Translations under genes and position numbers: made by a program
Source: Centroscyllium fabricii
Taxonomy: Eukaryota
Direction of reading: 5' to 3'
Assembly: GCA_051313645.2 (NCBI GenBank)
Contig: JBNRSN020000024.1
Location: 83,080,001-83,144,000, forward strand
DNA length: 64,000 nucleotides
Notes under the pieces: generated by a model
The model's database searches: none
Told to the model about the DNA's origin: nothing
Seen by the model: only the letters and a program-made list of their open reading frames with translations
Part shown: positions 1,382 through 51,888 of the stretch, piece by piece
Layout of the letters: each line of letters starts with the position of its first letter
How positions within the stretch are numbered: the first letter of the stretch is position 1

Positions 1382-1669
1382 TATGAAGTGTAGTTACTGG
1401 TTGTAATGTAGGAATTAGTTCCCAGTCTGTATGGAACTACTCTTCTGTCCTCCCTCAGAAGGAAGGATTGAAAAGTCTGGTCCCCTTTCATACCACAGGA
1501 GTGGTATTGGAGGAACCAAGCAGCCCTGGCTACACACTTGACCCAGGGCATAGTGCATGTTATTGAGGTTGGAACATTTCCGAGTATTCGAGTAAGATTT
1601 TAATTAAGAATTTTAACAAAGAATTTTTGGTTCACTTCCAGATTTTTGATTTTTTTTTTCTCTTCACAG

Positions 1670-1861
1670 ATTGTTCCGTGTCAGTATCTGTTACAACCTG
1701 TGAAGAATGATGATCGGCACCTGTACTCCCAGCACCTTAAATCACTGGCGTTTTCTGTCTTCACTCAATGTCGGAGATCCTTACCACCCTCCACCTATGT
1801 CAAAGCACTGACTGGCTTTGGTCCAGGACTGGCCTTAGACAGCACCTTAAAGAGTCCAGAT
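1670..1861 (+). CDS. MED13: Mediator subunit 13, internal coding exon (first in window)
   Basis: Polypyrimidine tract, cag|ATT ... GAT|gtaagt; [36 protein letters not shown]...[17 protein letters not shown] matches the remembered vertebrate MED13 C-terminal region. Confidence 0.95.
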
Positions 1862-2475
1862 GTAAGTCTGTGTCAATTTTGTTTTAAAAACCTCTTCATT
1901 TCACATTCTCCACATACCATAGGAGCCTGGTCCACTTCTGATTGGCTCCAGGGGAAATGCCAACGATGTGGCCACTATGATTGCGTGTCTGTTTGCTTTT
2001 CCCCAGCTCTAGCATTGAATTTGTTGCTCCTACCATTGTTTGCTTCAGTTCTTGCACCTGGCTGCAAGAAATGGGTGGTGTAGATTTTCCTTTGGGTCAG
2101 CGTGTCATGTTCCTGATAAAACTTCTGCTTGCTTGACATTTTCGGGGTCCGCTGCTTAAAAATTGGAATGCCAACAGGCAGGATCTCTTCATCCTCTGAT
2201 TTCTGATGGAGAATATGGCCGCCTCCACCCCTTTTGAAGTGTTTCAAGCTTTGTAAAGATTGTAATCGCCCCTCAGCAGAAATAGATGGGCCTGAATCAT
2301 ATATAAAAGGTCTGTCACCACAACACTGGAAATTGCACCACTTACCTTGGTGTTGGGGGGGGGGGGGGGTGTCTCTGAATGTATCTGTAAGTCCCTTCAG
2401 TATTTTGCTTAATCTGCATGCCGTGTGATAAAGCAGAAAGCAAAATCACAGGAAAACTGAGATTCAAAACAAGAT

Positions 2476-2845
2476 TGTGAGGGGGCTTGATCGGGTGGAT
2501 GCGGTGAGGATGTTTCCACTGATGGGTGAGACTAGAACTAGGGGGCATAATCTTAGAATAAGGGGCTGCCCTTTCAAAACTGAGATGAGGAGAAACTTCT
2601 TCACTCAGAGGGTAGTAAATCTATGGAATTTACTACCTCAGAGAGCTGTGGAAGCTGCGACATTAAATAAATTTAAAACAGAGATGGGCAGTTTCCTAGC
2701 TGATAAGGGAATAAGGGGTTACGGGGAGTGGACAGGGAAGTGGATGTGAATCTAAGTTCAGATCAGCCATGATCCTATTGAATGGCGGAGCAGGCCCGAG
2801 GGGCCTTATGGCCGACTCCTGCTCCTACTTCTTATGTTCTTATGT
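2476..2845 (+). mobile_element. CR1-type LINE 3' fragment
   Basis: TRGHNLRI...RRNFFTQRVVNLWNLLP plus the standard tail. Confidence 0.88.
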
Positions 2846-3589
2846 ACAAAGAAAAACCTGTCGGTTTTGATCTGGAGTCTTCTGGCACTGAATCTCAACT
2901 GGATTTGAGCACTGTGGCCATCTTGCTAATACCAGCTGAGTATAGATACCCAAAGGTACCAAGAGCACCGACAATGCCTATCTGCTGGTAACAACACCCA
3001 ACTAGACTGGGCATAGAGACCAAATCAGCAACGCATGCCATCAACTCAACTGGCAGCGCTCACCATCGGCCCGAATTTAAGTCCCTCTGGCACGTGTTGC
3101 AAGTTAACACTGGTTAATTTACCCAGGTAGGCAGTGATGGTTGCTGAAGAATTATTGACATGATGCCACACTGCGGCGGCTCTGGTGCCATCGTGTATCT
3201 GGGGAAGGCCGCCAATGAGGTTATCAGTCAGTACCTGCCAGTTCTGCTGGACGCCTCCTGCAGGGCCGGCCTAAGTACTACACAAGTTTAATATTCTAGT
3301 ATATCCCATAACCAGAGTAAATGTCCTAAACATGTAAGAAATACGCAACCTGTGCAATCCCCAATGGAACTGTCATCCCCATTAAAACCATACACTCTTG
3401 GGAAGTGGGACGACTCTTGATAAATCTGCTGAAACCGTATTGCAGATGAGACAAGGATAGAGCCGAGGACCTCCTTGTTACGTATCCGTGCCACACAAAG
3501 AGGTGCATTTGCTCCCTGAGCTATTTGTGGAGCTGAAATTTATAAAATGTGACCCAATTGTGAACCTGTCTTTTTCTTTTTTGCTACAG

Positions 3590-3813
3590 AGGCCAGAGTG
3601 TTTGCGGATTTACAGCCCACCGTTTATCTTGGCTCCAGTGAAGGATAAGCAGACTGAGCTGGGAGAGACATTTGGAGAGGCTAGCCAAAAGTACAATGTT
3701 CTTTTTGTTGGCTATTGCTTGTCACATGACCAGAGGTGGCTGCTTGGAACCTGCACGGATCTCTATGGAGAACTGCTGGAAACCTGCGTCATTAATATAG
3801 ATGTACCAAACAG
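3590..3813 (+). CDS. MED13: MED13 coding exon
   Basis: tacag|AGG ... AAC AG|gtatgt; [50 protein letters not shown]...NIDVPN. Confidence 0.96.
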
Positions 3814-4794
3814 GTATGTAGACGGCTGAAAAACATCAAAATATCGGCTAATTCACCCAGTCTAGTCGAAAGACTTGTCTTGAAATTGCTAGCAGCCCAG
3901 ACTGGCAGTTGTTTACAGAAAAGAACAGATCACCCTAGTCAGACCAGATGTATCTTCCAGTCTGTGTTGACATAGAAAGATTAGTGTATACAAGATGATG
4001 TTAGTACATTAAAAAAAAAACGCAGACATTGGAGAGCAGCACCAAACACATGCTGGTAACACGTGGAGAGTCAGGTGCAAAGTACTCCCAATTGCTAGTT
4101 AAAACTCCTGGCATATTCTCGGTGTGACCTTGAGTAATGTTGGCACCACCTTAGCTTCAGGTATCTTGCAGCAGACTTGCGTCAGTCTTGAAGGTAATGA
4201 GGTTTTGTTTGAGGGGTGATTGATTGTTTTGCTCTGCCAACACCTAGTTTTAGCTTTGTATTTGAAGGTCCAGCGTAAAAATGTATATGGTCAGCAAAAT
4301 GGGAAAATAATAAGAGAAAACAAGAATAATCTATTTTTAAGGCGTCCCAATCCACCTTTGTTACCATTGAACCCGGGGGTCAGTGGCCCTCTACTTTCAC
4401 CCCACATGGTGGTGCTGGCCTGAGTCAGTATTTTGGAGAATTCTTGGTGTGCAGCTACATATCTGACCATCTGTGACTCAGCAAATTGGTGCTTTGGTGT
4501 GCTACAGTGTTCTGCTTCTGTTCCTATCTTTACATTCGGTTTTTTTGTGTACCCCCCCCCCCCCCCACAAGTTAAATGCGGGGAAAAACCTCCCGCCCTG
4601 GAAGCAGCTGTTAATACACTTTCATGGGTCCCAATCAAAGTCCTGTGTACTTGCCCAAGTGACCAACGGTTATGAGCCTGGCAGTAAGTGTTGGACTGTT
4701 TGACCCTCGAGTGGCATCACATCCAAACCTGACTTCGACCTCACATGGGTTACTGGATGTTTTACTCTAACCCAGGCAAATAATAGCGGCCCCC

Positions 4795-4930
4795 AGTTCT
4801 GACGAAAGGTCATCGACCTGAAACGTTAACTCTGTTTCTCGCGTCACAGCTGCTGCCTGACCTGCTGAGTTTCTCCAGCATTTTCTGTTTTTATTTCAGA
4901 TTTCCAGCATCTGCAGTATTTTCTTTTTGA
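4795..4930 (+). mobile_element. Penelope-like terminal fragment, family P1, with hammerhead core (4795-4831)
   Basis: agtt CTGACGA a AGGTC atc GACCT GAAA cg TT aact; repeated at 33477, 51757 and 17575. Confidence 0.7.
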
Positions 4931-5083
4931 CATACTAGTGCCCCGAGACCAACTAACTCCATGCACGGAGCGAACCTGGGCCACCTTGTTCTGTACGGCT
5001 CAGCTGCTCACCTGCTGAGCTGAGGTGGTTGCATTTTTTGTTCAATGTCCAGTTTAGTTGCACAGTGGCCTATAATACAAATA

Positions 5084-5429
5084 CAGGTTGAGCACCGGTA
5101 ATCCGGCACCCGATGGTCCGGCAGCTTCAGTGGTCCGGCACGATTGGAAACCGGCGCTCTTCATTTTGCGGAGCAGCCGCTCGGTGGCGCCACCATTTCC
5201 CGCCAAGGTTGAGCGAGCGCCGAAGGCGTCTGGCGTTTGGGTTTCTGGTTTTTTAGGTTCTGTAAGTGTTCTATCCCTGGGCTCCCTCCCGGGGAGTGTT
5301 CTAACCGCGCGCTCCGGGCCCCGGGGAGTGTTCTACCGCGCGCTCCCCCGAACCTTCAGTGGTTCGGAATTTTCAGTGGTCCGGCACAGGCCTGGTTCCG
5401 AGGGTGCTGGATTAACGGTGATCGACCTG
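5084..5429. mobile_element. Tigger/pogo-like MITE, TIR type A
   Basis: TA|CAGGTTGAGCACCGGTAATCCGGCACC ... GGTGCTGGATTAACGGTGATCGACCTG|TA. Confidence 0.85.
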
Positions 5430-5431
5430 TA

Positions 5432-6020
5432 CAGGTTGAAGTTCGTTAATCTGGCAGGGTCAGGACCAGCACCCTGCCGGATTGTTGAAAACGGCGAATT
5501 ATTGAAACCACGGCGGCGCATGCGCATTCAAAATGGCTGTCGCGAAATTTTCAATGCTCTGTGCATGCGCTCACCGGTACCTGGAAGTTGATTTTCGGCC
5601 CAAGGGTCGGGTGGAACTCGCACTCGATTCTGCTGCGGGTCAGGGAGCGGGCCGCATGGCTCCAGCGGGCCTGAGGCCCAATGCGGGGCTCAAGCCCGGC
5701 TCACGTGACGCCACCGCACGCCAGCTTCGGAACGTGGTAACGTCCGCACGCAACCAGGCAGGAGCCTCCGGCAGCGATGGGCACCGAGAATTGCCTGTAT
5801 CGCGTCCTGCGAAAGGCGGCTGGCACAACAGCTCATCTTCTGGGCCTGGGATTCACCATCGACATCGGGGTGGTCACTAAGCCGGGATCCAGTGAGTATA
5901 TGTTGGGTGAAAGAGAAGCCCAGCCCCGACGGTGGCCATTTTGAATTGTTTGCACAGTTGGGAAAATCTGCGCCGAAGCTGCCGGTTTTTACGGGTGCCG
6001 GATTAACGAACTTCAACCTG
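5432..6020. mobile_element. Tigger/pogo-like MITE, TIR type B
   Basis: TA|CAGGTTGAAGTTCGTTAATCTGGCA ... TGCCGGATTAACGAACTTCAACCTG|TA. Confidence 0.87.
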
Positions 6021-6099
6021 TACTTGCATTCTAAAGGCAAGGGGGATGAGTGAATCCATTTTGCACAGTTAAATTGGTGATTTATGTTTTATCTGACAG

Positions 6100-6242
6100 G
6101 GCTCGCAGGCGGAAAGGTTCACCCCGGAGAATGGGTTTGCAAAAACTCTGGGACTGGTGCTTGGGCATCATGCAGATGACATCACTGCCCTGGAGGGTTG
6201 TTATTGGGCGCCTCGGGAGGATAGGACACGGAGAGTTGAAAG
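6100..6242 (+). CDS. MED13: MED13 coding exon
   Basis: gacag|G GCT ... AAA G|gtaaaa; [47 protein letters not shown]. Confidence 0.96.
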
Positions 6243-6554
6243 GTAAAAGAAATTAAGAGGAGTAAAGCAGATGAACATCCCACGGCATCCTGCAAACTGG
6301 CACATTGCATATTTATTTAACAATTTTCCTGGTATGTTGCTGGCAAAACATTCTCATTCTTGGAAGTATTAGTTCCAGATGTGAGCACTGACTAATGGGG
6401 ACTGCTCTTAGTATAAGTACACATATGAAACAGCCGTATATGTAAAAGAACAATTTTACCAGATCTGTACTATTGCTCACTAAATCCGAGGATCGGCTGT
6501 TTTATAAGAGGAATGCTGTATCAGGTAACGCACAATATATCTTTCTACTACTAA

Positions 6555-6820
6555 AATCAGATCGGCCATGTGATCTCCTGGACCAGTTTTTGATCGCCTA
6601 GATGGGTCGGAGAGGAATTTCCCAGATTTTTTCTCCCAAATTGGCCACTGGGTTTTTTATCTGGCTTTTCGCCTCTCCCGGGTGATCACATGGGTTCGGG
6701 CGGGATGGAGAGTGAAAATAAAATTGAGGTTAGGATCAGATCAGCCATGATCTTGTTGAATGGCGGAGCAGGCTCGAGGGGCTGATTGGCCAACTCCTGC
6801 TCCTATTTCTTATGTTCTTA
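6555..6820 (+). mobile_element. CR1-type 3' tail fragments
   Basis: Two successive tail-like segments (agatcggccatgtgatctc...; gatcagccatgatcttgttgaatggcggagcagg...ttcttatgttctta). Confidence 0.6.
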
Positions 6821-7006
6821 CGTAAAAGAACCCTGGATCAAGCAGAGTTGAGTTGTTTGGTGAGAGAACAGTGCATATTGGAAGCTGTTTGTAAAGATCA
6901 GGCTGCAGATCAGCACTCTCTCTTGAGATTGTTTTACATCTGTAACAATGCAAAATACAAAATGCCATGTGGTAGATGAAATCTTATTCTATCTTATTTA
7001 TCATGA

Positions 7007-7204
7007 TGTGGAGGTGCCGGTGTGAACTGGGGTGGACAAATGCAAGAAGTCACACAACACCAGGTTATAATCCAACAGCTTTATTAGAAATCACAAGCTT
7101 TCGGAGCGTTGCTCTTTCACCTGACGAAGGAGCGGCGCTCCGAAAGCTTGTGATTTCTAATAAAGCTGTTGGACTATAACCTGGTGTTGTGTGACTGCTT
7201 ACAT
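7007..7204. mobile_element. Inverted Penelope-like terminal pair, family P2, with hammerhead core (7117-7153)
   Basis: Hairpin with ~80-bp arms at 7038-7206; flanked by the 13-bp duplication ttatttatcatga (6994-7006 and 7205-7217). Confidence 0.75.
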
Positions 7205-7974
7205 TTATTTATCATGACCGTGCTCTAGACTATCTATGAGTAAAATTCTGAGAGTCCTGCGAACTTACACACATTTATTTTGTGTTCTTTTTAATACTGC
7301 TTTATTATAAAGTATGTGTTAGTGTTTTTAAAAAAAAAACTTGTCTGTATGTCGAAGAGCACTTATTTGTCCCCTTCCCTTCTCTCGTGGATGCCATGTC
7401 CCGGTGGATCCCAGCAGTACCTCATTAAATGGCCTTTGTTGATGTGTGAGCCAAGATTAAAATGGCAGGTTATTTGACCGTAGAGAGCTGAGTCCAATCT
7501 TGTTTTCACTCGACTTCTAAAGATGTACTTTTTAGCGAGGCTCATTTGATAAGTGATCAGGAGCGGGAACCAAGTTTTTTTTTTTTGCTGTCTCCAATGC
7601 ACTGAGGCCAATTATAGCACCATAACCTGCCTGAGATCAGCTGATGAGGGACATGCTTGTAATTGAACTGGTTCTATATCTTTTAAGCCTAGAAATTTAC
7701 TTTGGGGAATATTGAACCAATGCTTAGACCTTTGATATGAGATTCCTTTACTGGTTCAGTGGCGACTTTAAACTACAGTTTACCTGTATTAATATAGCAG
7801 GCAATGGAATGGCATACGCCAGTATCCTCAAAAGTAGCTTCTAGGCTATTGTGCGATACTGGGCAGTACATACAGTTACAAAGCCATCAAGAGAGCATTA
7901 GTAGAAAAGTTCTTTAATCTCCAGTGCATATTTATGTTCCCAAGATTCATGCTGCTCTTTTTGATTTCCTGCAG

Positions 7975-8133
7975 ACTGGAGTTGCTTACTTGGTCGGCGC
8001 ACTTTGCAATCCCTCAGCCGGCACCTGAAGGACACATGCAGGATGTGTGGCATTTCTGCGGCGGATTCTCCGAGCATCCTTAGTGCTTGTTTGGTTGCTA
8101 TGGAGCCCCAGGGATCATTCGTGATAATGCCTG
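7975..8133 (+). CDS. MED13: MED13 coding exon
   Basis: tgcag|AC TGG ... CCT G|gtaaga; [53 protein letters not shown] (not in the ORF track, read manually). Confidence 0.95.
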
Positions 8134-8219
8134 GTAAGAATAGTTTGGGGAATGTCCAGTTGAAAACTTGAATAAATTTATAGTCAGCAATTAGTTTCAA
8201 CCTGCATGAGATTAAAACA

Positions 8220-8876
8220 TTTTTTTTTATCCATTGATGGGATGTGGGCGTCGCTGGCTGGCTAGGCCTGCATTTAGTGCCCATCCCTAATTGCCCTTGA
8301 GAAGATGGTGGTGAGCCGCCTTCTTGAACTGCTGCAGTCCATATGGTGTAGGTACACCCACAATGTTGTTAGGAAGGGAGTTCCAGGATTTTGGCCCAGC
8401 GACAGTGAAGGAGCGGCGATACAGGTCCAAGTCAGGATGGTGTGTGGCTTGGAGGGGAACTTGTAGGTGGTGCTGTTCCCATGCGTCTGCTGCCCTTGTC
8501 CTTCTAAGTGGTAGAGGTTGCGGGTTTGGAAGGTGTTGTTGAAGGAGCTTTGGCGAGTTGCTGCAGTGCATCTTGTAGTTGGTACACACTGCAGCCACAG
8601 TGCGCCGGTGGTGGAGGGAGTTAATGTTGAAGGTGGTGGATGGAGTGCCAATCAAGCGGGCTGCTTTATCCTGAATGGTGTCGAGCTTCTTGAGTGTTGT
8701 TGGAGCTGCACTCATCCAGGCAAGTGGAGAGCATTCCATCACACTCCTGACTTGTGCCTTGTAGATGGTGGAAAGGCTTTGGGGAGTCAGGAGGTGAGAC
8801 ACTCGCCGCAGAATTCCCAGCCTCTGGCCTGCTCTTGTAGCCACAGTATTTATATGGCTGGTCCAGTTCAGTTTCT
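8220..8876 (-). mobile_element. 3' fragment of the tRNA-headed LINE family (see 59729-63230)
   Basis: ORF 8287-8844 is nearly identical to ORF 62517-62984 (YKAQVRSVME.SPLAWMSA); same tail and poly(A). Confidence 0.88.
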
Positions 8877-9084
8877 ACGTGTATATATGTACTGATGTAG
8901 TTTTACACTAGTATGATTTAAAAAAAATGATTAACCTGCTAAAGAATGTGAATGGAACCTGTATTCTGGTCTGACATCTCAACTCTCCATTTGAACAGCA
9001 GCTCCTGGTGGCCTGGCAAATGTTTTCCTTTCATAGTTTACATGTGACGTGTGTGTGAGTTTAGTATTGCCTGATTTATACAAC

Positions 9085-10615
9085 CAGGTCTGCCTGATGG
9101 ATGGATGTTTTTCAGACTGGGCAGTGGTGTTCCCCAAGGTCAGTTTTGGGTGCATTACTCTTTATTTTTATTAATGACCTAGACTCGGGTGTAGTGAGCA
9201 GCATTCTGAAGTTTGCAGATGATATGAAACTTGGCAAAGTAGTAGATAGTAAGTAAGTGAATAAGTAAGTAAATGTTATTGTCACATGAACTGAACAAGA
9301 AAGAATTCAGACAGTGAAATGCTGACTGCTATTCCACACGCGCCATACATCAAACTGCGCAACAAAGGACATTGAGATACACAGCACGCGCGGAATCCGC
9401 AAGACCTCAAGCCATTCTCCGGCGCCATCTTGTGATGAGGATAGTTGTCGACTTCAGGATGGTGAATTGGGTAGAAACATAGAAACATAGAAGATAGGAG
9501 CAGGAGTCGGCCATTCGGCCCTTCGAGCCTGCTCCGCCATTCAATGAGATCATGGCTGATCATCCAAACCCAGTATCCCGCCCCTGCCCTCTCCCCATAT
9601 CCCTCGATCCCTCTCGATCCGGCACCGACACATATCCCACCCTATCCCCGTAACCCCACGTATTCAATCCACCTAACACTAAGGGTCAATTTATCATGGC
9701 CAATCAACCTAACCCGCAAATCTTTGGACTGCGGGAGGAAACCGGAGCACCCGGAGGAAACCCACGCAGACACGGGGAGAATGTGCAAACTCCACACAGA
9801 TAGTACCCGAAGCACGGCAGATGGCGTTCAATGCAGAGAAGTGTAAAGTGATGCACTTGGGAGGACTAACATGGAAAGACAGTGTACTATAAATGGCACG
9901 ATTTTGAAAAGTGTAGATGAGACCTTGGTGTCCTTTTACACAAATCCTTAAAGCTGGCATGGCAAGTTGATAAATTGGTTAAAAAAGCAGATGGGTTACT
10001 TGGGTTTATAAATAGAGGCATAGAATATAAAAGCAAAGAAATAATGTTTGAACTTTATAAATCGCTGGTTAGGTCTCAGCAGCACTATTGTGGACAATTC
10101 TGGGCACCGCACTTCAGGAAAGATGTAAAGGCCTTAGAAAGGGTTCAGAGGAGGTTTACCAGGATGTTACCAGTGATGAGGGACTTCAGTTATGAGGAGA
10201 GGCTGGAGAAGTTAGGACTGTTCTCCCTGAACCAGAGAAGGTTAAGAGGTGACCTAATCGAGGTTTTCAAGATGATGAGAGGTTTTGATAGAGTAGAAAG
10301 AGAAAAACAATTCCCTCTGGCGAGTGGATCAATAACCAGAGGTCATAGATTCAAAATCATTGGCAGAAGATCTGGAGGGGAGATGAGGAGAATTTTTTTC
10401 ACTCCGTTGTCGGGATCGGGAACGCTCCTCCTGAAAAGGTGGTGGAAGCGGATTCCATCAATAATTTTAATGGGAATTGGACAGTTACTTGAGGATGTGA
10501 AACTTAAAGGGTTACGAACAAAAAGCGGGAATGTGGGATTAAGCATGACTGTTCTTTTACAGAGCCAGTACAGGCATGATGGGCCGAATGGCCTCCTGTA
10601 CTGTTAGTTTCTATA
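9085..10615 (+). mobile_element. CR1-type LINE RT/3' fragment with two nested insertions (~9251-9432 unclassified; 9472-9810 V-SINE)
   Basis: Degenerate GVPQGS and KFADD motifs at ~9125-9225; ORF 9975-10607 is a CR1 C-terminus. Confidence 0.82.
9472..9810 (-). mobile_element. HE1-like V-SINE, 5'-truncated, long CR1 tail
   Basis: V-domain (gtggagtttgcacattctccccgtgtctgcgtgggtttcctccggg) and CR1 tail. Confidence 0.85.
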
Positions 10616-10619
10616 ATCT

Positions 10620-11260
10620 TCGGCAGCACCACCATTGCCAAGACCACCACCATCAATATTCTGGAGATCACCATTGACTAGAAGCTTAACTAGACCAACA
10701 CTGGCTACAGGAGTAGGGCAAAGGCTGGGTATTATGCAATGAGTAGCTCACCTCCTGACCCCCTCAGCCTCTCCACTATATCTACAAGATTCAAATCAGG
10801 AGTATGATGGAATATTCAGCACTAACTGGATAGATGCAGCTGCAACAATACTCAACAAGATTGACGCCATTCGAGACAGAGCAGTCCACTTCATTGGTGC
10901 GCCTGCTGCGAGACTCAGGATTCATTCCATCCACCACTGGCGCATTGTTGCCACAGTGTGTGCTGTCTACAACTGCAACAACTCACTAAGCTTACTTGAA
11001 TAGAACCTCCCAGCCCTGTTACCTCTGCTGCAGAGAAGCACAAGAGCAACCAAATCTTGAATGCCATCACCTCTAAGTTCCCTTCCAACTCCTATGCCAC
11101 CATGACTTGGAGATATACACATTGTCGTCACGGAATCAAAATTCTGCAATTCACTACGTGATACCATTGTGGGAGCGGTCAGGAGGGCCCACCATTACCA
11201 TCTCGGGGCAGCTGAGAATGGGTGAAAATTATGGCCTCGCCTATATCTTGAGAAGAAATA
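10620..11260 (+). mobile_element. Degenerate 3' fragment of the tRNA-headed LINE family
   Basis: Colinear, diverged similarity to 62520-63230. Confidence 0.7.
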
Positions 11261-11293
11261 GTTTAAAAAAATCTTTTAGGGAGCAGTGGAGTG

Positions 11294-11422
11294 TAATGTT
11301 TCCTGTAATGGTGCGGGCCATTCAGAGTTCCACGCACGCATGGGTTTTCTATTTAGGAGCCGGCTCACTGGCTCTGCGGGACCTCGAGCGCTGTGTGACT
11401 GCGCGGCTTAAAGGGAACATTG
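11294..11422. mobile_element. Short hAT-like MITE (CAATGTTCCC TIR family)
   Basis: aatgtttcct ... agggaacattg; homologous to the copies at 46183, 49789, 54158 and ~18775. Confidence 0.6.
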
Positions 11423-12870
11423 CTTGAGTATCATCAAAAAGAATCAGAGGACATATGCCACTAGGCCAAATATTAACATTGAAATGGGGAGAAGAGGGGC
11501 TTTATGGTGCAACATGTTGGTGCCCCTCCATGGGGTATCATGTACGGCTAGGCTTTGGTTGCAGCTGTGATTCACGAAGTGTTGAATTTTCCCCTCACTG
11601 TGTTATGGGGACAGGCTCACTGAAAAACTAAAGCGCTTCATCACATTCGATGCAGTCAGCCTGGGCAGACTGCCTCATATGGCTGCTATAATCGAGAGTT
11701 GCCTCCAGCAGCACACGTTTTATTAGGAGGGAATCCTGTTATGTTAAGGACCCGATGCATTTGCCATTGAGGATAATGAAACCCTCCCAAGTAGGGTTAT
11801 TGCCTGGTGACTGCCGACTTCGAAGCTTAACGGCGCCTTTTGGTCGTATTTTCTGTTAGATTCATCAATTTGGATCCGCCTAAGAGCAAGTTAACTCCTC
11901 AGCCCTCCTGTACAGACCTTGCCTCAACATTAGAAGATCCCAACAGGTTGACAAAAGTTGGGAGTGTGACTGCATTAACTGTGCACACAGATGATCTGCA
12001 GTTACACAGTTGGTTAAAAGTGTTTGTCATTTACAAGCGCATATATTCAATTTTCCATTTATTGTCATTGGATGTGGCTCTAATCTAAAATCCAGTGTCT
12101 GTTGGCGAGCGGCACTGAAGCAACTTTGGACAACAGAAGGTGAATGTTGTCGGGACTCCCCATTCAGAGACAAGGGGCGAGAAAATGAAAGAGCTCGGAG
12201 AAAGAGTCTAAATTATTATATGTACTAAAAATAAATATATTTGAGAAAGACTTGAATTATAGAGCACCCTATTATGTTGTCAAAACATCTCAAAACTGCT
12301 TCACAAAATGAGTTTTTGAAGTACAGTGTCTGTTAATGGAAGCAGCCATTCCATAATGACAGTGTCTGGGAAGTAACAGAGACTTAAGCGATGACTTGTT
12401 TTTAGTGGTTGAGGGAGGAATGTTGCCCAGGACACTGGGAGAATTTCCTGCTCTCTCTCAAATCGTGCCACGGAATCTTCAACATTGACAAATTATGGCC
12501 TTTATTGTGCGGCGGAAGGGGTGCATAATTTGGAAGTTGTTAAACCTTTCTAGCCTTGGTAATTAAAACCAGGGGTTCAAAAAGTATTTTAAGTCTTCAT
12601 GAGTGAATGTGTTGCAGATCTCTCTAAGTTATCAGCAAATCACATTTTTCAACTTTTTTTTCAAGTCGAGCGCTGGTGTGAACCATATGAGCCAATTAGT
12701 TGCATCAAAGAGCTGAAGGTTCTTTTGAACTGGAGGTTCATATCCTGAAGCCATTAGAAAGAAACTTTCTTTTTATACCTTACTCGTTTGGTCTATTGTT
12801 GAGGACTTAACAGAAAATCTTTATTTTGAAATGTTGCTAAAGGACTAAACTTTTTTTTGTTTTGCTGCAG

Positions 12871-13029
12871 ACTCTGTGTCAGTCGGATCTGTGTTTGGTC
12901 GTGGCACGTCTCTCAACATGCAGACATCACAGCTGAGCACACCGCAGGATACATCGTGCACTCACATCCTGGTGTTCCCTACCTCCGCCATGGTGCAGGT
13001 GCCAACTGGGAACTACGAATTAAACGTTG
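12871..13029 (+). CDS. MED13: MED13 coding exon
   Basis: tgcag|AC TCT ... GTT G|gttagt; [53 protein letters not shown]. Confidence 0.92.
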
Positions 13030-14555
13030 GTTAGTCTTGTGTGTTTCCCTGGATTCTTACAGACTAGATTGCCAGGGTTTGAATTGGGGTATAATCTCTC
13101 ATTCTGCACTGTGATCCAGTCGAGTGGATGGTGGCTCAGTTGGTGCATCGGTTTCTGATTCCGCAGCGAATAGCTGAATATGGGTTTGGCTAGATGTTTT
13201 ATTTTTAAATGCTCAGTTTGGCCCTGGAGCAGATACGGGCTGAATGGCCTTTTTTTATTCCTTTATTCTTGGCTGCTGCAATGGCTCCATGCGCTGATCT
13301 AATAAGTAGCTGAGCTGTACAGAACCAGGAAGGCCCCAGGTTCAGAGCCTGATCCTTGTTAGCTTATTGCAGCTGTAGTAACAGTAGGGGTGCTACATTT
13401 GGCTTCAATACCTCATAGTTTGTGGTGGACAGAAAACCAGAACCACGGTTGGATTCAATGCCCCCAAGTTATGGGGGAAGATCAGCTCGGATTCCTGTTC
13501 CAGTGCACATGTGAGTACTTGGACAAATGATTTCCTGATGCAGTCAATTGAAGTGAAGAATAATGGTTACACAGGAGTGGGCACGTGGCTGTAATGTCAA
13601 CAAAGGGTTCGGATAGGCTCTGAACCACGAGTGCAAAACTTTAGTCGTTTATTAAAGCACCTGAACGCCGAATGGTTTGATGGCCCCCAGAGCTGATGTG
13701 GGCTGACGACCACACTACGTTGTGATATAATGCCCTGCTCATTGAGTAACAAACCGCAATAGATTAGCGAATATCCGCACACTTGGCTTGTTTCTACTGT
13801 GAGTGACATAATGAGTAAAAGCACTATCTGCTGTCCTGACCTGCACAGACTAGATCGAAGGTTCGATCCTGAGCTGGGGCTGAGTTTGGGGTGTTACAGT
13901 TTGGCTTGTGAGCTCAGGATTGGAAAATTCAACCAAAATTCCCACTTCTGCTGGATATCTGGTGGGCAGGATACCCTACATGGTTTATTAACCTGTTGAT
14001 AATTGGTAACTTAGATGTGAAGAATGGTTACTTGTGGTGAGGTACTGGAGGGATGCTTGGGATGGGGTAGGGGACTCGCACACCAGCATGAATTGTGGAG
14101 GGGGGGAGGAGGCAGCAGAGGAGAAACAATTCCTCCTGTCAGTCTACGCATTATGCAATGTAGTGCTTTGGAACTGGTTCTTAGAAATGCTAGAATGCTG
14201 CACATACTGATGATTGAGGAATACGTGGGGGATTGATGGGGTTTGATGTAAGAGCATCTTGTGTTGCTCTGAACTATTCAGCCACGTCCTGCTGCAGTGG
14301 AGCATGTTTTCCTACAGCCTGCTGGTAATCATTAATTGAGGACTGAACTTTCCACTGGTCCATCTGTCTTTAGACCTTTTTTTAATTGGGCCGTGGTGAA
14401 TGGAGCAGTGACATTTCAAATTCACAGCAACTGAACAACTCTTAGTATATAGTTGATTGCTGCGATGGATCACGCAGTGAGAATGCTGATCATTTACAAG
14501 TCGTTTTCGAATATTGTGCTCCCCGATCCTTATCTGACTCCCTTTTGATTTGCAG

Positions 14556-14683
14556 AGGAAATAGGGATCTTTGACTTACTGGACCCAGACGATGATCTTA
14601 TAATTAACTTGCCAGCATCTCCATCCACATCGCCGGGACATTCACCAGGCTCTCATTACCCGCACGGCGGTGACACTGGCAAG
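14556..14683 (+). CDS. MED13: MED13 coding exon
   Basis: tgcag|AG GAA ... AAG|gtgagg; [42 protein letters not shown]. Confidence 0.92.
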
Positions 14684-15014
14684 GTGAGGCTGTTGCGTCG
14701 TCACATTTGTTTCCCCCCCTTTTTACATTTTCAGCCAATACTTCAGTAAATCAATTCACCAGATACAGATGAGAAGAATGTTTGGTGCACCTTTAGATTA
14801 TCCATCAAGCCTTCTTTCTCTCCGCTCCTTCCTCCTTAATAAAATCAAGTGTTTCTTAAATAATTCCTCGGTTTCTCTCTACCCTACCTGGAAGTGTATT
14901 CCACTTGTTGATCAACCTTTGTGTGAAGGATAGCTTCCTGGCGTCAATCCTAAATTTGCTGTGTATTGGTTTGGCCCTCTGCCTCTTTGTCCCACTGTCA
15001 TGGTTTAGCTTATA

Positions 15015-15453
15015 CAGGTTGAGCACCGTTAATCCGGCACCGTCGGGACCAGGCTGGTGCCGGACCACTGAAAAATCCGAACCACTGAAGGTTCGGGGAG
15101 CACATGCGCAGACCATTCAAAATGGCCTCCATGCATGCGCAGACCATTCAAAATGGCCACCACGCATGTGCAGACCATTGAAAATGGCCGCTGCGCATGT
15201 GCAGACCATTCAAAATGGCCACCGCGCATGTGCAAACCATTCAAAATGGCCACCGCGCATGCGCAGACCATTCCAAATGGCCACCGCACAGGCGCAGACC
15301 ATTCAAAATGGCCGCTGCGCATGCACAGACCAGTCGGGGAGAGGCCTGCGCATCGTGAGCGTCCCTGGGATCACGTGGGCCATCCAGACGGATTCGTGCC
15401 GGACCACTGAAGGTGCCGGACCATCGGGTGCTGGATTAACGGTGCACAACCTA
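15015..15453. mobile_element. Tigger-like MITE (type A) with internal 31-bp tandem array
   Basis: TA-flanked TIRs CAGGTTGAGCACCGTTAATCCGGCACC; 7 full units of cgcgcatgcgcagaccattcaaaatggccac at 15101-15332. Confidence 0.87.
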
Positions 15454-16262
15454 TATCGATATTCTGGACGTACCTTTTTCTACACCATATATAACATCTC
15501 ATCCTTTGTTGCTTTCTTTCAAGGCTGAAATGCACAATTTCCTCTAGGTTTCCTTGTGATTGTCTCCATTTCCCTTTCTGTCCCCTCCCCTTGCTCCCAT
15601 TTTGTCTTTGTTTTCTCTGCACCTATAATGTGTCCTGACATTTAGTAAGTGGTACAGCATGACATTGTAACAGCTGCCAAACTCCAATATGCTTAAATTG
15701 CCTTGGGCAGAGTTTCTGCTAACTGGAGACCTCTGGGCTCTTGATATGTTAACAAGGAGGTGCTGGAAATCTGCCAAGAATTGAACTTTTTTCCCTACAG
15801 AATGCCACAAGCATTCTACCGGTAAGTTTATATACTGTTAAATATAGGCTCTTTTAAGATGTTTGGCTTTTGGAGCCATGTTAAATGTCTTTTTCTCATT
15901 TCCTACCTCCTTTTGTGTCATGACTCCTGAAAAAGTTTGAAACTCTTGCAACAAATTTCTCCAGTGCTTTTAATACTACTCGTGACTTTCCACATTCTGG
16001 GATATGTTTTTTTTTGAAAGACAAAACTTAGCTGGAGAGTAACATTGTGACTGGAGCTACGTTTGTTCCCAGGTTAAAAATGTTGCAGTTGCCTATCGAG
16101 TATCTTTTGTTTCCATTCTCTTTAACGTTACACCACAATTCATAATATTTTTAGGTGTGAAGCATAAAATAACTTGGAGAGAGGGTAAGTGGAGGAGGTT
16201 TCATGGAGAACTTCTGCTTAAGGAAGTAGCTAGTTGAGTTGTGTGATAAACCGTTTACCCCC

Positions 16263-16570
16263 AATACTGTTGTATATAGTTACCTCCTGTCCACCTGGGA
16301 TCTACCTGGGATAATACTGTATTGTATATAGTTACCTCTTGTCCACCTGGGATCGACTTGGGATAATACTGTATTGTATATAGTTACCTCCTGTCCACCA
16401 GGGATCTACCTGGGATAATACTGTATTGTATATAGTTACCTCTTGTCCACCTGGGATCGACTTGGGATAATACTGTATTGTATATAGTTACCTCCTGTCC
16501 ACCAGGGATCTACCTGGGATAATACTGTATTGTATATAGTTACCTCTTGTCCACCTGGGATCGACTTGGG
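16263..16570 (+). repeat. 52-bp minisatellite, 6 units alternating as a 104-bp dimer
   Basis: Unit starts at 16311, 16363, 16415, 16467 and 16519; diagnostic bases alternate. Confidence 0.92.
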
Positions 16571-16748
16571 ATGCCTCAGCCGGCTCCGCCTCCTGGCTCC
16601 ACCCACAGACTGAGGTATAAAGGTGGCAGCCCTGCTGACCTCGTGGCATTCCAGGACCTGATAGTGACGAGACCTGTACTCCAGTTCTTTGTTAATAAAA
16701 GCCTCAATTGCTTTACTTCGTCGACTCACAGTAATTGATCGTGCATCA
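16268..16748 (+). mobile_element. Probable solo LTR (Gypsy-like)
   Basis: Starts TGTTGTA and ends TGCATCA; internal TATAAA (~16616) precedes AATAAA (~16694); flanks aatac/agtag match only partly. Confidence 0.6.
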
Positions 16749-16819
16749 AGTAGCTGAAATGTAAAATTCTAAGTTTGTGCCCCAGTTATGATGGATTTAT
16801 CTGGTCCCATCTTAAGCAT

Positions 16820-17135
16820 CCACTCCCTGCCCCATCGTGGCTGCAGTGTGCACTATCTACAGCATCTTCGACAACACCTCCCAAACCCATGACCGCCATC
16901 ACCTGGAAGTACAAGGGCAGCAGGCGCATGGGAACGCCCTCCCCTCCAAATCACACACCATCTCAACTTGGACATGTATCGCCGCTCTTTCAAAATCCTG
17001 CAACTCCCTTCCTAACAGCACTGTGGGAGCACCTTCACCACACGGACTGCAGCGGTTCAAGAAGAAGGCTCACCACCACTTTCTCGTGGTCAACTAGGGA
17101 TGGGCAATAAATGCTGGCCTTGCCAGCGACGCATA
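16820..17135 (+). mobile_element. 3' fragment of the tRNA-headed LINE family
   Basis: Tail caactagggatgggcaataaatgctggccttgccagcgacgc. Confidence 0.8.
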
Positions 17136-17344
17136 GAACATTCTAAACACATGCTGCCGCCTGCTCGGCGCTGAAGGCTAGATCGAAAAGAAACACTTTA
17201 TGCCAGCTTATTCTCTTGTTTTTACGGAATATGGAACTTTGAAAACCTAACACCGTTTGTTAACAGGATAGATTGAGACAATTACCATAAATAACCTGCT
17301 GCAGTCTGCCAATTATAATTAACTTGCTGCTTTTACTGTTTCAG

Positions 17345-17506
17345 GGACAGTGCACGGACCGACAGGAATCTCACGATGAAGTAACCATTTTGCAGCAGCC
17401 CCTGGCACTGGGATATTTTGTCTCGACCGCTAAGGCTGGGCCACTTCCTGACTGGTTTTGGTCGGCCTGCCCTCAAGCACAGAACCAATGTCCGCTTTTC
17501 CTCAAG
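17345..17506 (+). CDS. MED13: MED13 coding exon
   Basis: ttcag|GGA ... AAG|gtaagc; [54 protein letters not shown]. Confidence 0.96.
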
Positions 17507-17574
17507 GTAAGCCGAGACAGCTTTGTGTGTGTGTGCATGTGTGTGTTTTTTCAGAAAACTTGGGGAGTTAAATA

Positions 17575-17742
17575 CAGTAGCAAAATACTGCGGGTGCTGG
17601 AAATCCAAAATAACAACAGAAAACGCTGGAGAAACTCAGGCCAGGGCAGCATTGGCGGAGAGAGAAACAGAGTTAACGTTTCAGGTCTTTGACCTGATGC
17701 TGCCTGGCCTGCTGAGTTTCTCCAGTGTTTTCTGTTGTTATA
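17575..17742. mobile_element. Inverted Penelope-like terminal pair (family P1), partly deleted
   Basis: Minus-strand copy of the 4795 repeat followed by a plus-strand partial copy, forming a hairpin. Confidence 0.7.
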
Positions 17743-18183
17743 TTGGGGAGAATTAATGTGCCCTCATGGTAAGAGTTGAAGGTGGAGGGATTCACCTCGA
17801 GGTGGAATTTTTAAAAATTCACCAACTATTCCGATTAAATTCAGAGTAAGTAACTGAAAGACAAATGAGAACTTTTGTTAAAATCTTTTTTAAAAATGGA
17901 TTCACCCATGTGTGGGGTTACGGGGATAGGGTGGGATATGTGTCGGTGCAGGCGCGATGGGCCGAAATGGCCTCTATCCGCACTGTAGGGATTCTATGAT
18001 TACTGTGGTGACTCCAGATATGATTTGCTGGCTGTAGTTTTGTGTGTAATGGGATTGTGTTACACTGGTAACAATGACTGTTGCCATCTAGTGGCAAGTA
18101 TAGTAATGCAGTAACACGCTGAGCTGGACCAGGTGTATTGTCTTTTACATTTCATGGGGTTTTAATATCTTCTTGGTTTTCAG

Positions 18184-18284
18184 GCCTCGTTGCACCTCCA
18201 TGTGCCTTCAGTGCATTCGGATGAGTTGCTCCACAGTAAGCACTCCCACCCACTTGATTCAAACCAGACCTCTGATGTGCTCAG
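18184..18284 (+). CDS. MED13: MED13 penultimate coding exon
   Basis: ttcag|GCC ... CTC AG|gtatga; [34 protein letters not shown]. Confidence 0.95.
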
Positions 18285-19421
18285 GTATGAGATGCTGCAT
18301 TATTCGTTAAAAGTAATATCGAAGGGCTTAGTATGCATTGATATTTCTCACTTGCAAAATGATTGAGCAACCCGCCCCTATTTTGTTAAATTTAAAGGTA
18401 GTGGCCCCTTGCGGGGAAAAACACACACCCGGCTGTGCAATTGTACATGAATGCCCTCTTGCATGTGGGTTGTGTGTGGAGAGAACTATTTGGGAACAGC
18501 GTTCCCTGTAAGCTGTGCTTTGTTCTGAGCGGCCTGTTTCCTTAATAATAATAATAGTCTTAGTCTTTATTGTCATTGTACAAGTACAACGAAATTGAAA
18601 TGCAATCCTTAAAAGTGCAAGAAAGAGAAAACATAAAACTATCTTTAAAAAAAAACCAAATAATTAAAAACTATAAAATAAATAATTAGCAGCTTCAAAG
18701 AGGAGGCAGGAAACACATTACACACACACATTCACATTCTGCAGGTATGATCCATGTCAGAATATTTACAAGATGCGTGGTCCCTTTAAATTTCTGCGCA
18801 TGCGCGGTATTTACAATGTAAAAGTCGGTGAGCGGCCTGTGCGGGATCTTTCCCATCACTGGGCGGCCGCGCAGCTTTGAGGGAACATTGTTTGAGAGTC
18901 GCACAAAACTAGGGTGCTGGTAGATCTGAGGGAGTGCCGCATGGTGAGTGTCGTCATCGTTCTGGTGAGACATTAAACCAGGATCCCATCTGTCTGTTTC
19001 CACAGCACTGCTTGAGGAGAAACAGTAAGTTCTCAATAGTGTTCTGACCAATGTTGCTCCTCCATACAGAAATTGGCCAGTCATTTATCACATTGTTCTT
19101 TTGTTGGATGTTAGTGTGGAATGGCGGACATGTCTGTCTGCACACAGTACTGCACTCCAATAGCAATCGCGTGAAACATTGATGCATTTGAACTATGATG
19201 CTGTTTCGGAGATGGCCTGTGAGCCTGGGCAGCTCACTTCTATTTGTATTCATGTTATTTATTTTATTGCTGTTGTTTCATCGGCAGCTTTAGATATATG
19301 CAGATTAATAGGAATGGCAATTTAATGTTATTGTGGCCTGTGAAGCGTCAAGATATGTGGCCCAAGAATACAAAAAGCCTCAACATTCCTGCACTTGTAA
19401 AGACAGTTGCCTTTTCTGTAA

Positions 19422-19589
<168 letters not shown>

Positions 19590-30400: not shown

Positions 30401-31046
30401 CCCAGTTAGGAGGTACCACCAAGCACAAGGCACCTCCCCCAAGGCTGGTGGTTTGCCTGTAACTGCTGCCAGCCAGAGTAGGAGTACAAATCTGGGGGCA
30501 GGCTGTCCCGCTGCCCTCCTCTTTCAGGAAGCAAGTGTTGCACCGGCCCCATTCCTACTTGTAAAGCAGCAGAAATGGAGAAAAAGCAGCCAGATATTCC
30601 ATATTGTATTTTTTTCTTCCCGCTTCTGAAACTAGCGACTCCTGTTTGGATGCATTTTCACGGCCTCCAGTATGTCACGCATTTTTGAGGGAGGTGCGAG
30701 TGAGAGGCATCAAGACTGAGCCTTATCCTGTCCCTGCACACTTTCCAGCGTACCGGCCGGTGATCAGGACCAGGAACCTCGACTGAATTTATATTTTTTG
30801 TTTCCCTTTCCAACCCAATTGTAGACCCCCAATTACTGCTCATCAACTGACCAAACCAGATTCCTCCTGGTCAGTGGGCTGTTCCTGTACTGACTTAATC
30901 ATGTTTTGGGTTGGGAGGGAGGGGGGTGGGGGGAGGTTGGGGCACTCAAAGCATTATCTCCACTTCCAATGTTTTGCTGCAATAACGGATCTAAAGTCTT
31001 ACTTTAACAATCAAATTATATAATGATATAGTTAACAAATACATAC

Positions 31047-31223
31047 GTGTAATGATGGGGTCAATATCCTGTGCCTGAGTGGCGACATGTGAGGCACAGA
31101 CCTGTCCGGTCTGGATCAATAATGAGGTTACGTCGTCATATAGTGGAGGAAAAGCTCGGCAGAAAGACACCAAGCAGGGCAACGTAGGCATGAAGAAAGC
31201 AAACCGCTTAGCCTGGGTCAACA
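31047..31223 (-). CDS. INTS2: INTS2 coding exon
   Basis: tacag|TG TTG ... ACA C|gtatgt; LTQAKRFAFFMPTLPCLVSFCRAFPPLYDDVTSLLIQTGQVCASHVATQAQDIDPIIT. Confidence 0.96.
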
Positions 31224-31497
31224 CTGTACAGGAAGAGAACAGTACAACAGTGAATAATGCTTCAAAGTTTATTTAGAACAGAGATCCTGAGATTTTACTC
31301 TGCAAATGCCACTGAAACCATCTCTAGCTTAAAACCTCTATCACAAACATTATTTTTATTGATACGACCAGTTAGTGTTCCTCTGAACCCTCCTAAACTT
31401 CAAACACCATCTGTATGTCTCTGCTGAGGTGTGATGTTGGAAGAGATTAGACTGCTCTCTCCCTTGTATATTATATGCTGTCTTTAAATGAACTTCT

Positions 31498-31625
31498 CTT
31501 TCACCTGAGGAAGGAGCAGCGCTCCGAAAGCTTGTGATTTCAAATAAAACTGTTGGACTATAACCTGGTGTTGTGTGACTTCTTGCATTTGTCCACTCCA
31601 GTCCAACACCGGCACCTCCACATCA
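31498..31625 (+). mobile_element. Penelope-like terminal fragment, family P2, with hammerhead core (31501-31537)
   Basis: tcac CTGAGGA a GGAGC agc GCTCC GAAA gc TT gtga. Confidence 0.75.
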
Positions 31626-32010
31626 TAGAACATAGAAGATAGGAGCAGGAGTGGACCATTCGGCCCTTCGAGCCTGCTCTGCCATTCAACGAGATCATGG
31701 CTGATCATCCAAACCCAGCACCCTGTCCCTGCCTTCTCCCCATATCCCTCGATCCCTATCGAGCCTGCACTGACATATTCAAATCCCCCTTATCCCCGTA
31801 ACCCGACATATTCAATCCCCCTAACACGGAGGGTCAATTTATCATGGCCAATCAACCTAACCTGCACATCTTTGGACTGTGGGAGGAAACCGGAGCACCC
31901 GGAGGAAACCCACGCAGACACGGGGAGAATGTGCAAACTCCACACAGATAGTACCTGAGGCTGGATTTGAACCCGGGTCTCTAGTGCTGTAAGGCGACAG
32001 TGCCGCCCGT
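31624..32010 (-). mobile_element. HE1-like V-SINE, long CR1 tail
   Basis: tRNA-like head, V-domain and CR1 tail. Confidence 0.85.
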
Positions 32011-32571
32011 AATACCATCATACAAGCATTTGCTCCACCTGCATCCTCAATGTTTAACGCAAGACCTACCACTCAAATGCATTCTTTTCCAACACCTCAG
32101 AATTGTGGAACACATTACCCTCCACCAGTCTTCACCATCCTTCAATCTGCAGACTTTTTAAATCCTGAGGAATGCCAATTTGTACTCGGGAGAAAACCCT
32201 GGAATCATTTAAGAACCTCATCTGCTCTCTTCAACCTTGGTAGCATCGTGTGCTATGGACCTTTTGTCTTGGTTTCTTACAGTGCTTTGGTGCACCCGTC
32301 CCATTGATGGATGACCTCGGTTTTAGCAGATTACCCTCATTTTGAATTTTTGATCTTGGTTTGGGCTTTCTGGAAAATGGGGGAGCAAATGACCGTACCT
32401 TCCTTCTAGGGGCAAATTCAACATTCAGCCCATGTTGGTCTTGCGCAGGCTCTGCAGAATGGTTCAGAGCTGCGACGTCAGGAGTTAGAAGATAGCTACC
32501 TACCCCCTTGAGGAGTTGAGCAAAGTAGCCCTTGCATGGAAAGAAATACAGGCATATGCTCAAAAAAGACC

Positions 32572-33182: not shown

Positions 33183-33279
33183 TAGCCCGTGATACATTTT
33201 ATGCTAAAAGTAATAAAGGAGATTTTTTTTCTCTTCTCTCCCACACGGCAGCTGTCTCTCATTCTGCCAGCGCAATTCA

Positions 33280-33612
33280 CACTTCATCTGGCGCCATCCT
33301 TTGTTTCTTAACCTGTCCCATTACCGCCTCCTCTTGCCTTGAATATCTCTTAATGTCTCTTTACTTCTCCTGCCTTCTATCCTATCACAGACCTTCCCTT
33401 TTGTTCTTTCAAGCCCTCCCCCCTTTCTCAGCCCCTAAAGTTGCTTTGAAATCTGCTCCATTTCCTGCTTTTTTCCAGTTCTGACGAAAGGTCATTGACC
33501 TGAAACGTTAACTCTGTTTCTCTCTCCACCGATGCTGCCTGGCCTGCTGAGTTTCTCCAGTGTTTCCTGTTGTTATTTCAGATTTCCAGCATCCGCAGTA
33601 TTTGGCTATTGT
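33280..33612 (+). mobile_element. Penelope-like terminal fragment, family P1 (longest copy), hammerhead core 33477-33513
   Basis: Pyrimidine-rich leader, then agtt CTGACGA a AGGTC att GACCT GAAA cg TT aact. Confidence 0.72.
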
Positions 33613-33655
33613 AAAGGATATGGTTTAATGTGTTACCAGCAGTAGGGGACCTCAC

Positions 33656-33761
33656 CTGTGAGTATTGTTCCCATGACATTGATGGACAAACGGGCTACAC
33701 TGAGAGACTTGGGTAATGCATACTGGATACACAAGTGGGACAAAAGCTGGATGGCAAATAT
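33656..33761 (-). CDS. INTS2: INTS2 coding exon
   Basis: tttag|ATA ... ACA G|gtgagg; IFAIQLLSHLCIQYALPKSLSVARLSINVMGTILT. Confidence 0.94.
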
Positions 33762-39071: not shown

Positions 39072-39082
39072 AAAGTACTGAC

Positions 39083-42958: not shown

Positions 42959-42974
42959 GACTGAAAATGCACTA

Positions 42975-43546: not shown

Positions 43547-43776
43547 TACAGTGTTTAGGAGCAGGAAAAAGCCCATTAAGTCCAGCAAGCCCATCACTTT
43601 TAGATTGTATCCCAGAATCTTCTGACTGAGAAGTGACAGTGCTACTGAGACAAGCTGATATGTTTCTCTCTCCACGGATGCTGCCTGGCCTGCTGGGTAT
43701 TTACAGCATCTTCTGTTGTTACATCCTCTTAATACATTTGCTGTGATTTTTGCTCCTCTCACTGTTGGTGACTCAC

Positions 43777-51756: not shown

Positions 51757-51888
51757 CCGACGAAAGATCATCGACCTGAAACGTTAACTCTGTTTCTCTC
51801 TCCACCGATGCTGCCTGGCCTGCTGAGTTTTTCCAGCGTTTTCTGTTGTTATTTCGGATTTCCAGCATCCGCAGTATTTTGCTATCGT
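51757..51888 (+). mobile_element. Penelope-like fragment, family P1, decayed hammerhead core
   Basis: ccgacgaaagatcatcgacctgaaacgttaactctg... Confidence 0.7.

What the first reader, a model, noticed from the sequence alone, without database searches (positions are those of the whole stretch)
4795..4831. Minimal type I hammerhead ribozyme, repeat family P1
Seen: AGTT-CTGACGA-A-AGGTC(ATC)GACCT-GAAA-CG-TT-AACT. This gives the CUGANGA and GAAA cores, a 5-bp helix II, helix I AGTT/AACT, a palindromic mini helix III and a putative GUU cleavage triplet. The same motif with a loop-only change occurs at 33477-33513, and decayed copies at 51757 and ~17670 (-). Established: Penelope-like retroelements carry minimal hammerheads thought to act as dimers. 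Inference: this copy is sense to MED13, so it is present in intronic pre-mRNA. The extra A after CUGANGA and the A-U closing pair are non-canonical.
Basis: partly seen in the sequence, partly recalled or inferred. Interest (0 to 1): 0.7.

Follow-up and report, generated by a model that had tools for sequence, protein, structure and literature searches.

The report
Penelope transposon hammerhead stub in MED13
The motif is real but ordinary: it is one of more than 17,000 like copies of a tiny, predicted self-cutting RNA left in this genome by a known kind of jumping gene, and this lone copy in a MED13 intron is likely inactive because it has no matching partner copy in the same transcript.

Summary
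The 37-nt motif is exactly as described. [quoted passage not shown] The genome holds 17,095 copies of this variant and 91,863 of the generic core, against 134 for the reversed control. Helices I, II, III and the tertiary 3-8 pair covary across three lineages. The extra A is normal for this class, and the A-U closing pair has published precedent. The copy is sense in a 2.3-kb MED13 intron. No other intact sense copy lies in MED13, and the neighbouring family cannot pair with it, so it is likely inert. Cleavage is untested. Side result: 16 of 96 copies are broken exactly at the cleavage triplet by inverted-repeat elements, which mimics copies 'starting at the cut site'. The scan noted this motif class many times before, in this and other genomes.

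The parts
4795..4831 (+). Minimal type I hammerhead motif, family P1; all core, helix and palindrome positions intact
   Evidence: fits the published consensus except for the 10.1-11.1 pair
4827..4828 (+). Predicted scissile bond, after the GUU triplet (U17 | A1.1)
   Evidence: hammerhead numbering applied; not assayed
4790..4930 (+). Solo, 5'-truncated PLE pseudo-LTR end: hammerhead plus ~100 nt downstream; no target duplication longer than 5 nt found
4894..4930 (+). Optional ~35-nt PLE 'tail' between the family's two preferred 3' ends
   Evidence: 52 of 96 copies end at the first site, 33 of 96 at the second; loose ends at 4894-4896 and 4922-4929
3814..6099 (+). MED13 intron that hosts the copy
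33224..33603 (+). Longer P1 pseudo-LTR copy with intact hammerhead at 33477-33513; antisense inside an INTS2 intron
51759..51880 (+). P1 copy truncated inside the core
17582..17741 (-). P1 fold-back stub (17582-17695 on -, 17698-17741 on +) without the CUGANGA half; in a later MED13 intron
43661..43721 (+). P1 piece downstream of the hammerhead only
7050..7194 (+). Second family P2: fold-back insertion with an intact minimal hammerhead at 7117-7153; all three helices differ from P1 but pair
31501..31579 (+). Second P2 copy, hammerhead 31501-31537

Best explanation
The motif is the minimal type I hammerhead at the end of a Penelope-like retroelement, left as a ~140-nt stub in a MED13 intron; in the parent element it is predicted to cut its own RNA only as a pair of copies or with help from the element's protein, and this lone copy is likely inert. 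Shown: the sequence, family size, link to the RT/GIY-YIG frame, two-copy layout in full elements, covariation, intron position, and absence of a partner in MED13. Inferred: helix III is only the 4-nt palindrome ACGU, so two copies must swap strands to close the core; tandem element RNA supplies the second copy. The stub was copied from uncut RNA, because it spans the cut site and ends at the family's tail end ~100 nt downstream.
For: [quoted passage not shown] In 11 of 20 loci fetched around RT hits, a same-strand P1 hammerhead follows the frame, 243-353 nt away in 9 of them. L104 has two same-strand copies ~3.35 kb apart flanking one frame. Covariation: 92% of cells pair against 26-42% when slid, with 10 of 12 pairs changed on both sides. 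A sister subfamily tied to the same protein has U3-A8, C2.1-G1.1 and G10.1-C11.1; in the first 100 of 9,537 matches the 3-8 pair is U-A 85, U-G 9, C-G 5, C-A 1. Genome counts for 10.1-11.1 are A-U 17,095, G-U 7,146, G-C 392, A-C 314 (odds ratio 3.0). Two 3' ends ~35 nt apart match the PLE tail (PMC11167929). Inertness: no other intact sense P1 in 264 kb that hold MED13 from about exon 2 to its stop; a P1/P2 pair would have 9 non-pairs; helix I forms with probability <= 0.03 in intron context; a single minimal motif showed no cleavage in PMC4209133.
Against: No cleavage was measured. No Rfam model matched. Pfam support for the protein is below the curated cut-offs (RVT_1 E 0.003; GIY-YIG E 0.0009 on another copy) and no solved structure matched. 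The covariation rests on three lineages, not 64 independent events, and the search patterns fixed several columns. Across 73 copies the core is no better kept than the adjacent tail (divergence 0.068 against a median of 0.055). The computed active dimer (-9.7 kcal/mol) is far above the best inactive dimer (-22.9), so even a pair may need protein. This copy is fully intact, which holds for only 18 of 73 copies; weak selection on it cannot be excluded.
Confidence: 0.85

Rival explanations
1. This copy is a working intronic ribozyme that cuts MED13 pre-mRNA, either by pairing in trans with one of the many other P1 transcripts or when the element's protein binds it.
For: All positions are intact and it is sense in the intron. 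At least 17,095 copies share the core and helix II. A Poseidon hammerhead cut only when element protein was added (PMC11167929). The stub keeps the downstream region where genomic copies end.
Against: No partner in cis; helix I is only 4 bp and hardly forms in context; minimal motifs cut poorly even as dimers; no RNA-seq reads ended at the site in Anolis; the copy has close relatives at 95% identity, as expected of an ordinary insertion.
Confidence: 0.07
2. In this family the hammerhead fold is kept for a job other than cutting, such as protein binding, promoter or splice signal, and P1 has drifted to weak or no catalysis.
For: P1 has lost the G10.1-C11.1 pair in 97% of counted copies and a U-U variant recurs. 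All copies sampled by their tail that are long enough span the cut site. Cleavage was not needed for insertion in vitro. A pyrimidine tract plus AG overlaps helix I, as the intron end does in D. virilis Penelope.
Against: These are constraints specific to the catalytic fold.
Confidence: 0.15
3. The motif is a chance hairpin that happens to contain the two short cores.
For: Core count and fold energy in the window are not significant; no Rfam hit.
Against: 91,863 against 134 genome matches, covariation, and a fixed place behind a PLE frame.
Confidence: 0.01

Closest known systems
Minimal hammerheads (min-HHR) in pLTRs of metazoan Penelope-like elements (Cervera and De la Pena 2014, PMC4209133; parts 1-2 of 4 of the text and part 2 of 3 of supplement 2 read)
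   Same: U-rich flank, short helix I, CUGANGAH with the inserted base, helix II, GAAA, palindromic 15.2-16.2, NUH triplet; mostly solo copies; two copies ~3 kb apart around an RT-EN frame; a U3-A8 core variant; GUU triplets in many listed families.
   Different: A10.1-U11.1 (and G-U) instead of the >80% G-C consensus, though A-U is listed for one Latimeria family and D. willistoni. Copy number is about ten times the 4,000-9,000 reported for coelacanth and Xenopus. No cartilaginous fish name was found in the supplement text searched (file 1 not searchable).
Poseidon element of Anolis (Frangieh et al. 2024, PMC11167929; parts 1-2 of 4 read)
   Same: Hammerhead at the pLTR-ORF junction; genomic copies run past the cut site and end at two sites a tail apart.
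   Different: Here the protein has the Cys linker of Neptune/Nematis type, and in L104 the first Met lies ~140 nt downstream of the cut site, not inside the ribozyme.
Neptune-clade EN+ PLEs (Craig et al. 2021, PMC8557442; passages read)
   Same: RT, CX2-5CxxC linker, C-terminal GIY-YIG with CCHH-type residues, pLTRs, inverted 5' copies, 30-40-bp tail.
   Different: Clade not tested by a tree; Nematis shares the linker.
Non-LTR retrozymes (bioRxiv 10.64898/2026.07.22.740005; part 1 of 5 and passages read)
   Same: Type I hammerhead derived from PLE pLTRs; reported in one chondrichthyan.
   Different: This copy is a single stub, not a tandem array.
Ultraconserved intronic hammerheads of amniotes such as RECK HH9 (named in a figure legend of PMC6155905; otherwise recalled)
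   Same: Sense hammerhead in a host intron.
   Different: Those are single-copy, canonical monomers; this is one of many thousands of minimal repeat copies.

Membership tests
PLE minimal hammerhead | CUGANGA and GAAA cores with U16.1 and H17 | tested here: met
PLE minimal hammerhead | One inserted base between 9 and 10.1 | tested here: met
   A4806; invariant column in 64 of 64 rows, partly fixed by the search patterns; 72 of 73 in copies picked by flanks
PLE minimal hammerhead | Palindromic 15.2-16.2 without a stable helix III | tested here: met
   CG in P1, GC in P2
PLE minimal hammerhead | Helices I and II supported by compensatory change | tested here: met
   three lineages only
PLE minimal hammerhead | G10.1-C11.1 closing pair (consensus at >80%, not universal) | tested here: not met
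   A-U here; A-U 17,095, G-U 7,146, G-C 392; published exceptions exist
PLE minimal hammerhead | Self-cleavage as a dimer or with protein | not testable with these tools
   only folding energies; no raw RNA reads available
EN+ Penelope-like element | Single frame with RT and C-terminal GIY-YIG upstream of the pLTR | tested here: met
   Pfam scores below cut-off
EN+ Penelope-like element | Partial tandem or inverted pLTRs and a 30-40-nt tail | tested here: met
   L104 tandem, L103 inverted; two 3' ends
Neptune clade | CX2-5CxxC linker between RT and EN | tested here: met
   compared
Neptune clade | RT phylogeny | not tested
Canonical type I hammerhead (Rfam models) | Match to a curated covariance model; stable helix III | tested here: not met
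Non-LTR retrozyme | Tandem units each with a hammerhead | tested here: not met
   single stub

The most novel reading that the evidence does not exclude
Tens of thousands of intact, identical minimal hammerheads lie in this genome, many in introns; whenever the element is expressed, its protein or its RNA completes them in trans and cuts host pre-mRNAs such as MED13. The inverted-repeat elements that land exactly on the cleavage triplet in one of six copies would then act as a recurrent off-switch.
Probability: 0.06. Interest if true: 0.7.

Novelty: new member of a known kind. Interest (0 to 1): 0.2.

Why it matters
As it stands it adds one very large family to a described class and says nothing special about MED13. 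Two points are useful. Natural subfamilies differ at 3-8, 10.1-11.1 and 2.1-1.1, which gives a ready set for testing whether PLE hammerheads must cut. And insertions at the cleavage triplet can be mistaken for a genomic footprint of cleavage. If trans or protein-assisted cutting of intronic copies were real, a transposon could interfere with host splicing across the genome.

Tried and rejected
Rfam: no hammerhead match in the window, three loci or the 161-nt stretch. Genome search with Pfam GIY-YIG gave 2 matches, one of which (L072) shares sequence with this element. Genome search with Med13_N found nothing and its control was also blank; the upstream exons were read by eye from translations. 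PDB sequence search was blank. A first exon guess (6117-6261) had a stop and was dropped. 'Core more conserved than flank' (0.07 against 0.15) was rejected, because the flank figure included sequence past the copies' ends; the fair comparison shows no difference. A P1/P2 heterodimer was rejected. 'Copies begin at the cut site' was rejected for 9 of 16 cases, unclear for 1 and open for 6. A cluster of 5' ends at helix I: 15 of 96 by script, about 9 after removing by eye duplicates, other-subfamily copies and copies with an inserted end; inconclusive. No transposase was tested for the inserted elements (frames only printed). A source for the activity of A10.1-U11.1 or the rate at GUU was not found; PMC3138052 passages only list GUU as an active triplet. 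Paper searches for shark + Penelope + hammerhead ribozyme (1 paper, not relevant) and hammerhead + DNA transposon + insertion hotspot + Penelope (0 papers) found no report; subscription journals and Repbase are not covered.

Full report
Observation. The motif is present base for base at 4795-4831, with a loop-only variant at 33477-33513 and broken copies at 51759, 17582-17741 and 43661. Alone it is not significant: 8 core matches in the window against 4.7 +/- 2.3, fold z = -1.68, no Rfam hammerhead match. In the 7.2-Gb genome the generic core has 91,863 matches against 134 for the reversed pattern. The first 100 listed belong to two families, P1 (this one) and P2 (window 7117 and 31501). That the organism is a shark is my recall of its repeats plus earlier notes; no call names it.

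What it belongs to. Copies extend upstream to varying lengths into a PLE frame. [quoted passage not shown] Pfam scores are weak, the PDB search is blank, and atlas neighbours at 0.98 carry RVT_1 and GIY-YIG. I fetched 20 wider loci, 19 picked from the 150 RT hits mostly for long frames and 1 around a motif hit. In 11 of the 20 a same-strand P1 hammerhead follows the frame, 3 show only the downstream piece, 5 show neither, and 1 has no frame. L104 has the tandem layout, two motifs ~3.35 kb apart. Among 96 distinct copies from the first 100 places of a tail pattern (82,890 in the genome; a few are segmental duplicates), 52 end at one site and 33 about 35 nt further, the tail described in PMC11167929 and PMC8557442. 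The linker points to Neptune or Nematis; vertebrate PLEs were Neptune or Poseidon in the 2026 preprint, so Neptune is inferred, without a tree.

Is the fold real? P1 and P2 differ in helices I, II and III, yet each pairs. A sister subfamily on the same protein carries U3-A8, C2.1-G1.1 and G10.1-C11.1; in the first 100 of 9,537 matches the 3-8 pair is U-A 85, U-G 9, C-G 5, C-A 1. On 64 aligned copies 92% of cells pair, against 26-42% for slid partners; 10 of 12 pairs change on both sides, though for that count 213 of 500 shuffles did as well. This reflects three lineages, and the patterns fixed some columns; helix I was not fixed and pairs at 90%. In 73 copies picked by their flanks (19 dropped as truncated or of another subfamily), frequent variants fall on N7, loop II, CpG sites, 10.1, 11.1, 17 and 1.1. 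The core is not better kept than the adjacent tail, and 18 of 73 are fully intact, as expected of dead copies that decay neutrally.

The 'non-canonical' points. The inserted base is listed as a conserved trait of PLE minimal hammerheads, and the published consensus is CUGANGAH. The closing pair is A-U in 17,095, G-U in 7,146, G-C in 392 and A-C in 314 exact matches; A-C is about three times rarer than independence predicts. A-U occurs in published families, and GUU triplets are common there.

Host context. MED13 is on + and INTS2 on -. Spliced contigs of two related organisms and an open joined frame place the copy in intron 3814-6099. MED13 stops near 19,560; an early exon lies about 154 kb before the window (recognised by eye). 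In those 264 kb the only intact sense P1 inside MED13 is this one; another intact P1 is antisense, 24 kb before the window. The 33477 copy is antisense within INTS2. P2 at 7117 is on the same pre-mRNA but gives 9 non-pairs with P1 and sits in a fold-back.

Mechanism. Shown in the literature: a single minimal motif did not cut and multimers cut weakly; a Poseidon motif cut only with element protein, and cutting was not needed for insertion. Computed here: the double-hammerhead form pairs fully for P1/P1 but is 13 kcal/mol above the best inactive dimer, and helix I hardly forms in the intron. Inferred: in the parent element the motif cuts as a pair or with protein; this stub came from uncut RNA and is inert (0.85). 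Trans or protein-driven cutting of MED13 pre-mRNA is not excluded (0.07).

Side result. Of the 96 copies, 19 lose similarity within the triplet zone. Fifteen of these, plus one with a duplicated tail, have a run ending in CC directly before a GTT/ATT-like triplet. For 9 of the 16 the 5' half of the hammerhead lies 93-4,467 nt upstream and ends in the same or a near-identical triplet followed by a G-rich start; 1 is unclear and 6 were not found within ~7 kb. L242 has a perfect 16-bp inverted repeat. These are insertions with a 3-bp duplication, like PHIS/Harbinger elements (passages of PMC4482050); no transposase was tested. The same ends also occur at other AT-rich sites, so target preference is the likely cause. 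I saw this before looking up earlier notes; one of them reports it in another genome.

Verdict. A correct catch of a known class: new member of a known kind, interest 0.2. Earlier scan notes record the class 284 times in at least 27 genomes and 15 times in this genome. Supplement file 1 of PMC4209133 and the preprint's supplements were not seen and may list chondrichthyan families.

Noticed in passing
L242, L025, L309, L313-L315, L317, L321, L322; window equivalent 4825-4827: Inverted-repeat elements of mostly 700-900 nt (up to 4.5 kb with what may be nested inserts) sit exactly at the hammerhead's cleavage triplet in 16 of 96 copies, with a 3-bp duplication; this mimics copies that begin at the cut site.
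   Followed up: partly
L185-L214 (9,537 pattern matches in the genome): Large sister subfamily with U3-A8 in the core, G10.1-C11.1, a 4-bp helix II and mostly GUC; tied to the same PLE protein at 63-90% identity.
   Followed up: yes
window 7050-7194 and 31496-31584: Second family P2, often in fold-back form; two P2 loci hold PLE protein pieces only 30-38% identical to the P1 protein, so it is probably a distant PLE family.
   Followed up: partly
window 33465-33480 and 4824-4850: A pyrimidine tract plus AG overlaps the 5' arm of helix I, and a branch-point-like stretch with a second tract and AG follows the cut site; D. virilis Penelope has an intron ending at helix I. No spliced RNA evidence.
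   Followed up: no
window 4790-4800; L223, L252, L257, L260, L295: Some copies, this one included, begin within a few bases of helix I, where the sequence fits an initiator consensus (recalled); about 9-15 of 96.
   Followed up: partly
first 100 matches (e.g. L132, L134, L142): Recurrent U10.1-U11.1 variant of P1, so the closing pair of helix II is relaxed in this family.
   Followed up: no
L275, L306: Fold-back junctions centred on the GTTAAC palindrome at the cut site.
   Followed up: no
window 1666-19560 (+) and 30994-39400 and beyond (-): MED13 and INTS2 face each other tail to tail, as recalled for other vertebrates.
   Followed up: yes
L068 and L069: Long gag/pol-like frames of an LTR-type element next to P1 copies.
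   Followed up: no
window 15013-15370, 34355-34800, 42973-43480, 47450-47750: GC-rich elements with internal 25-31-nt tandem repeats and shared ends; other abundant short repeats and LINE pieces (RVT_1 at 61788-62219) fill the window.
   Followed up: no
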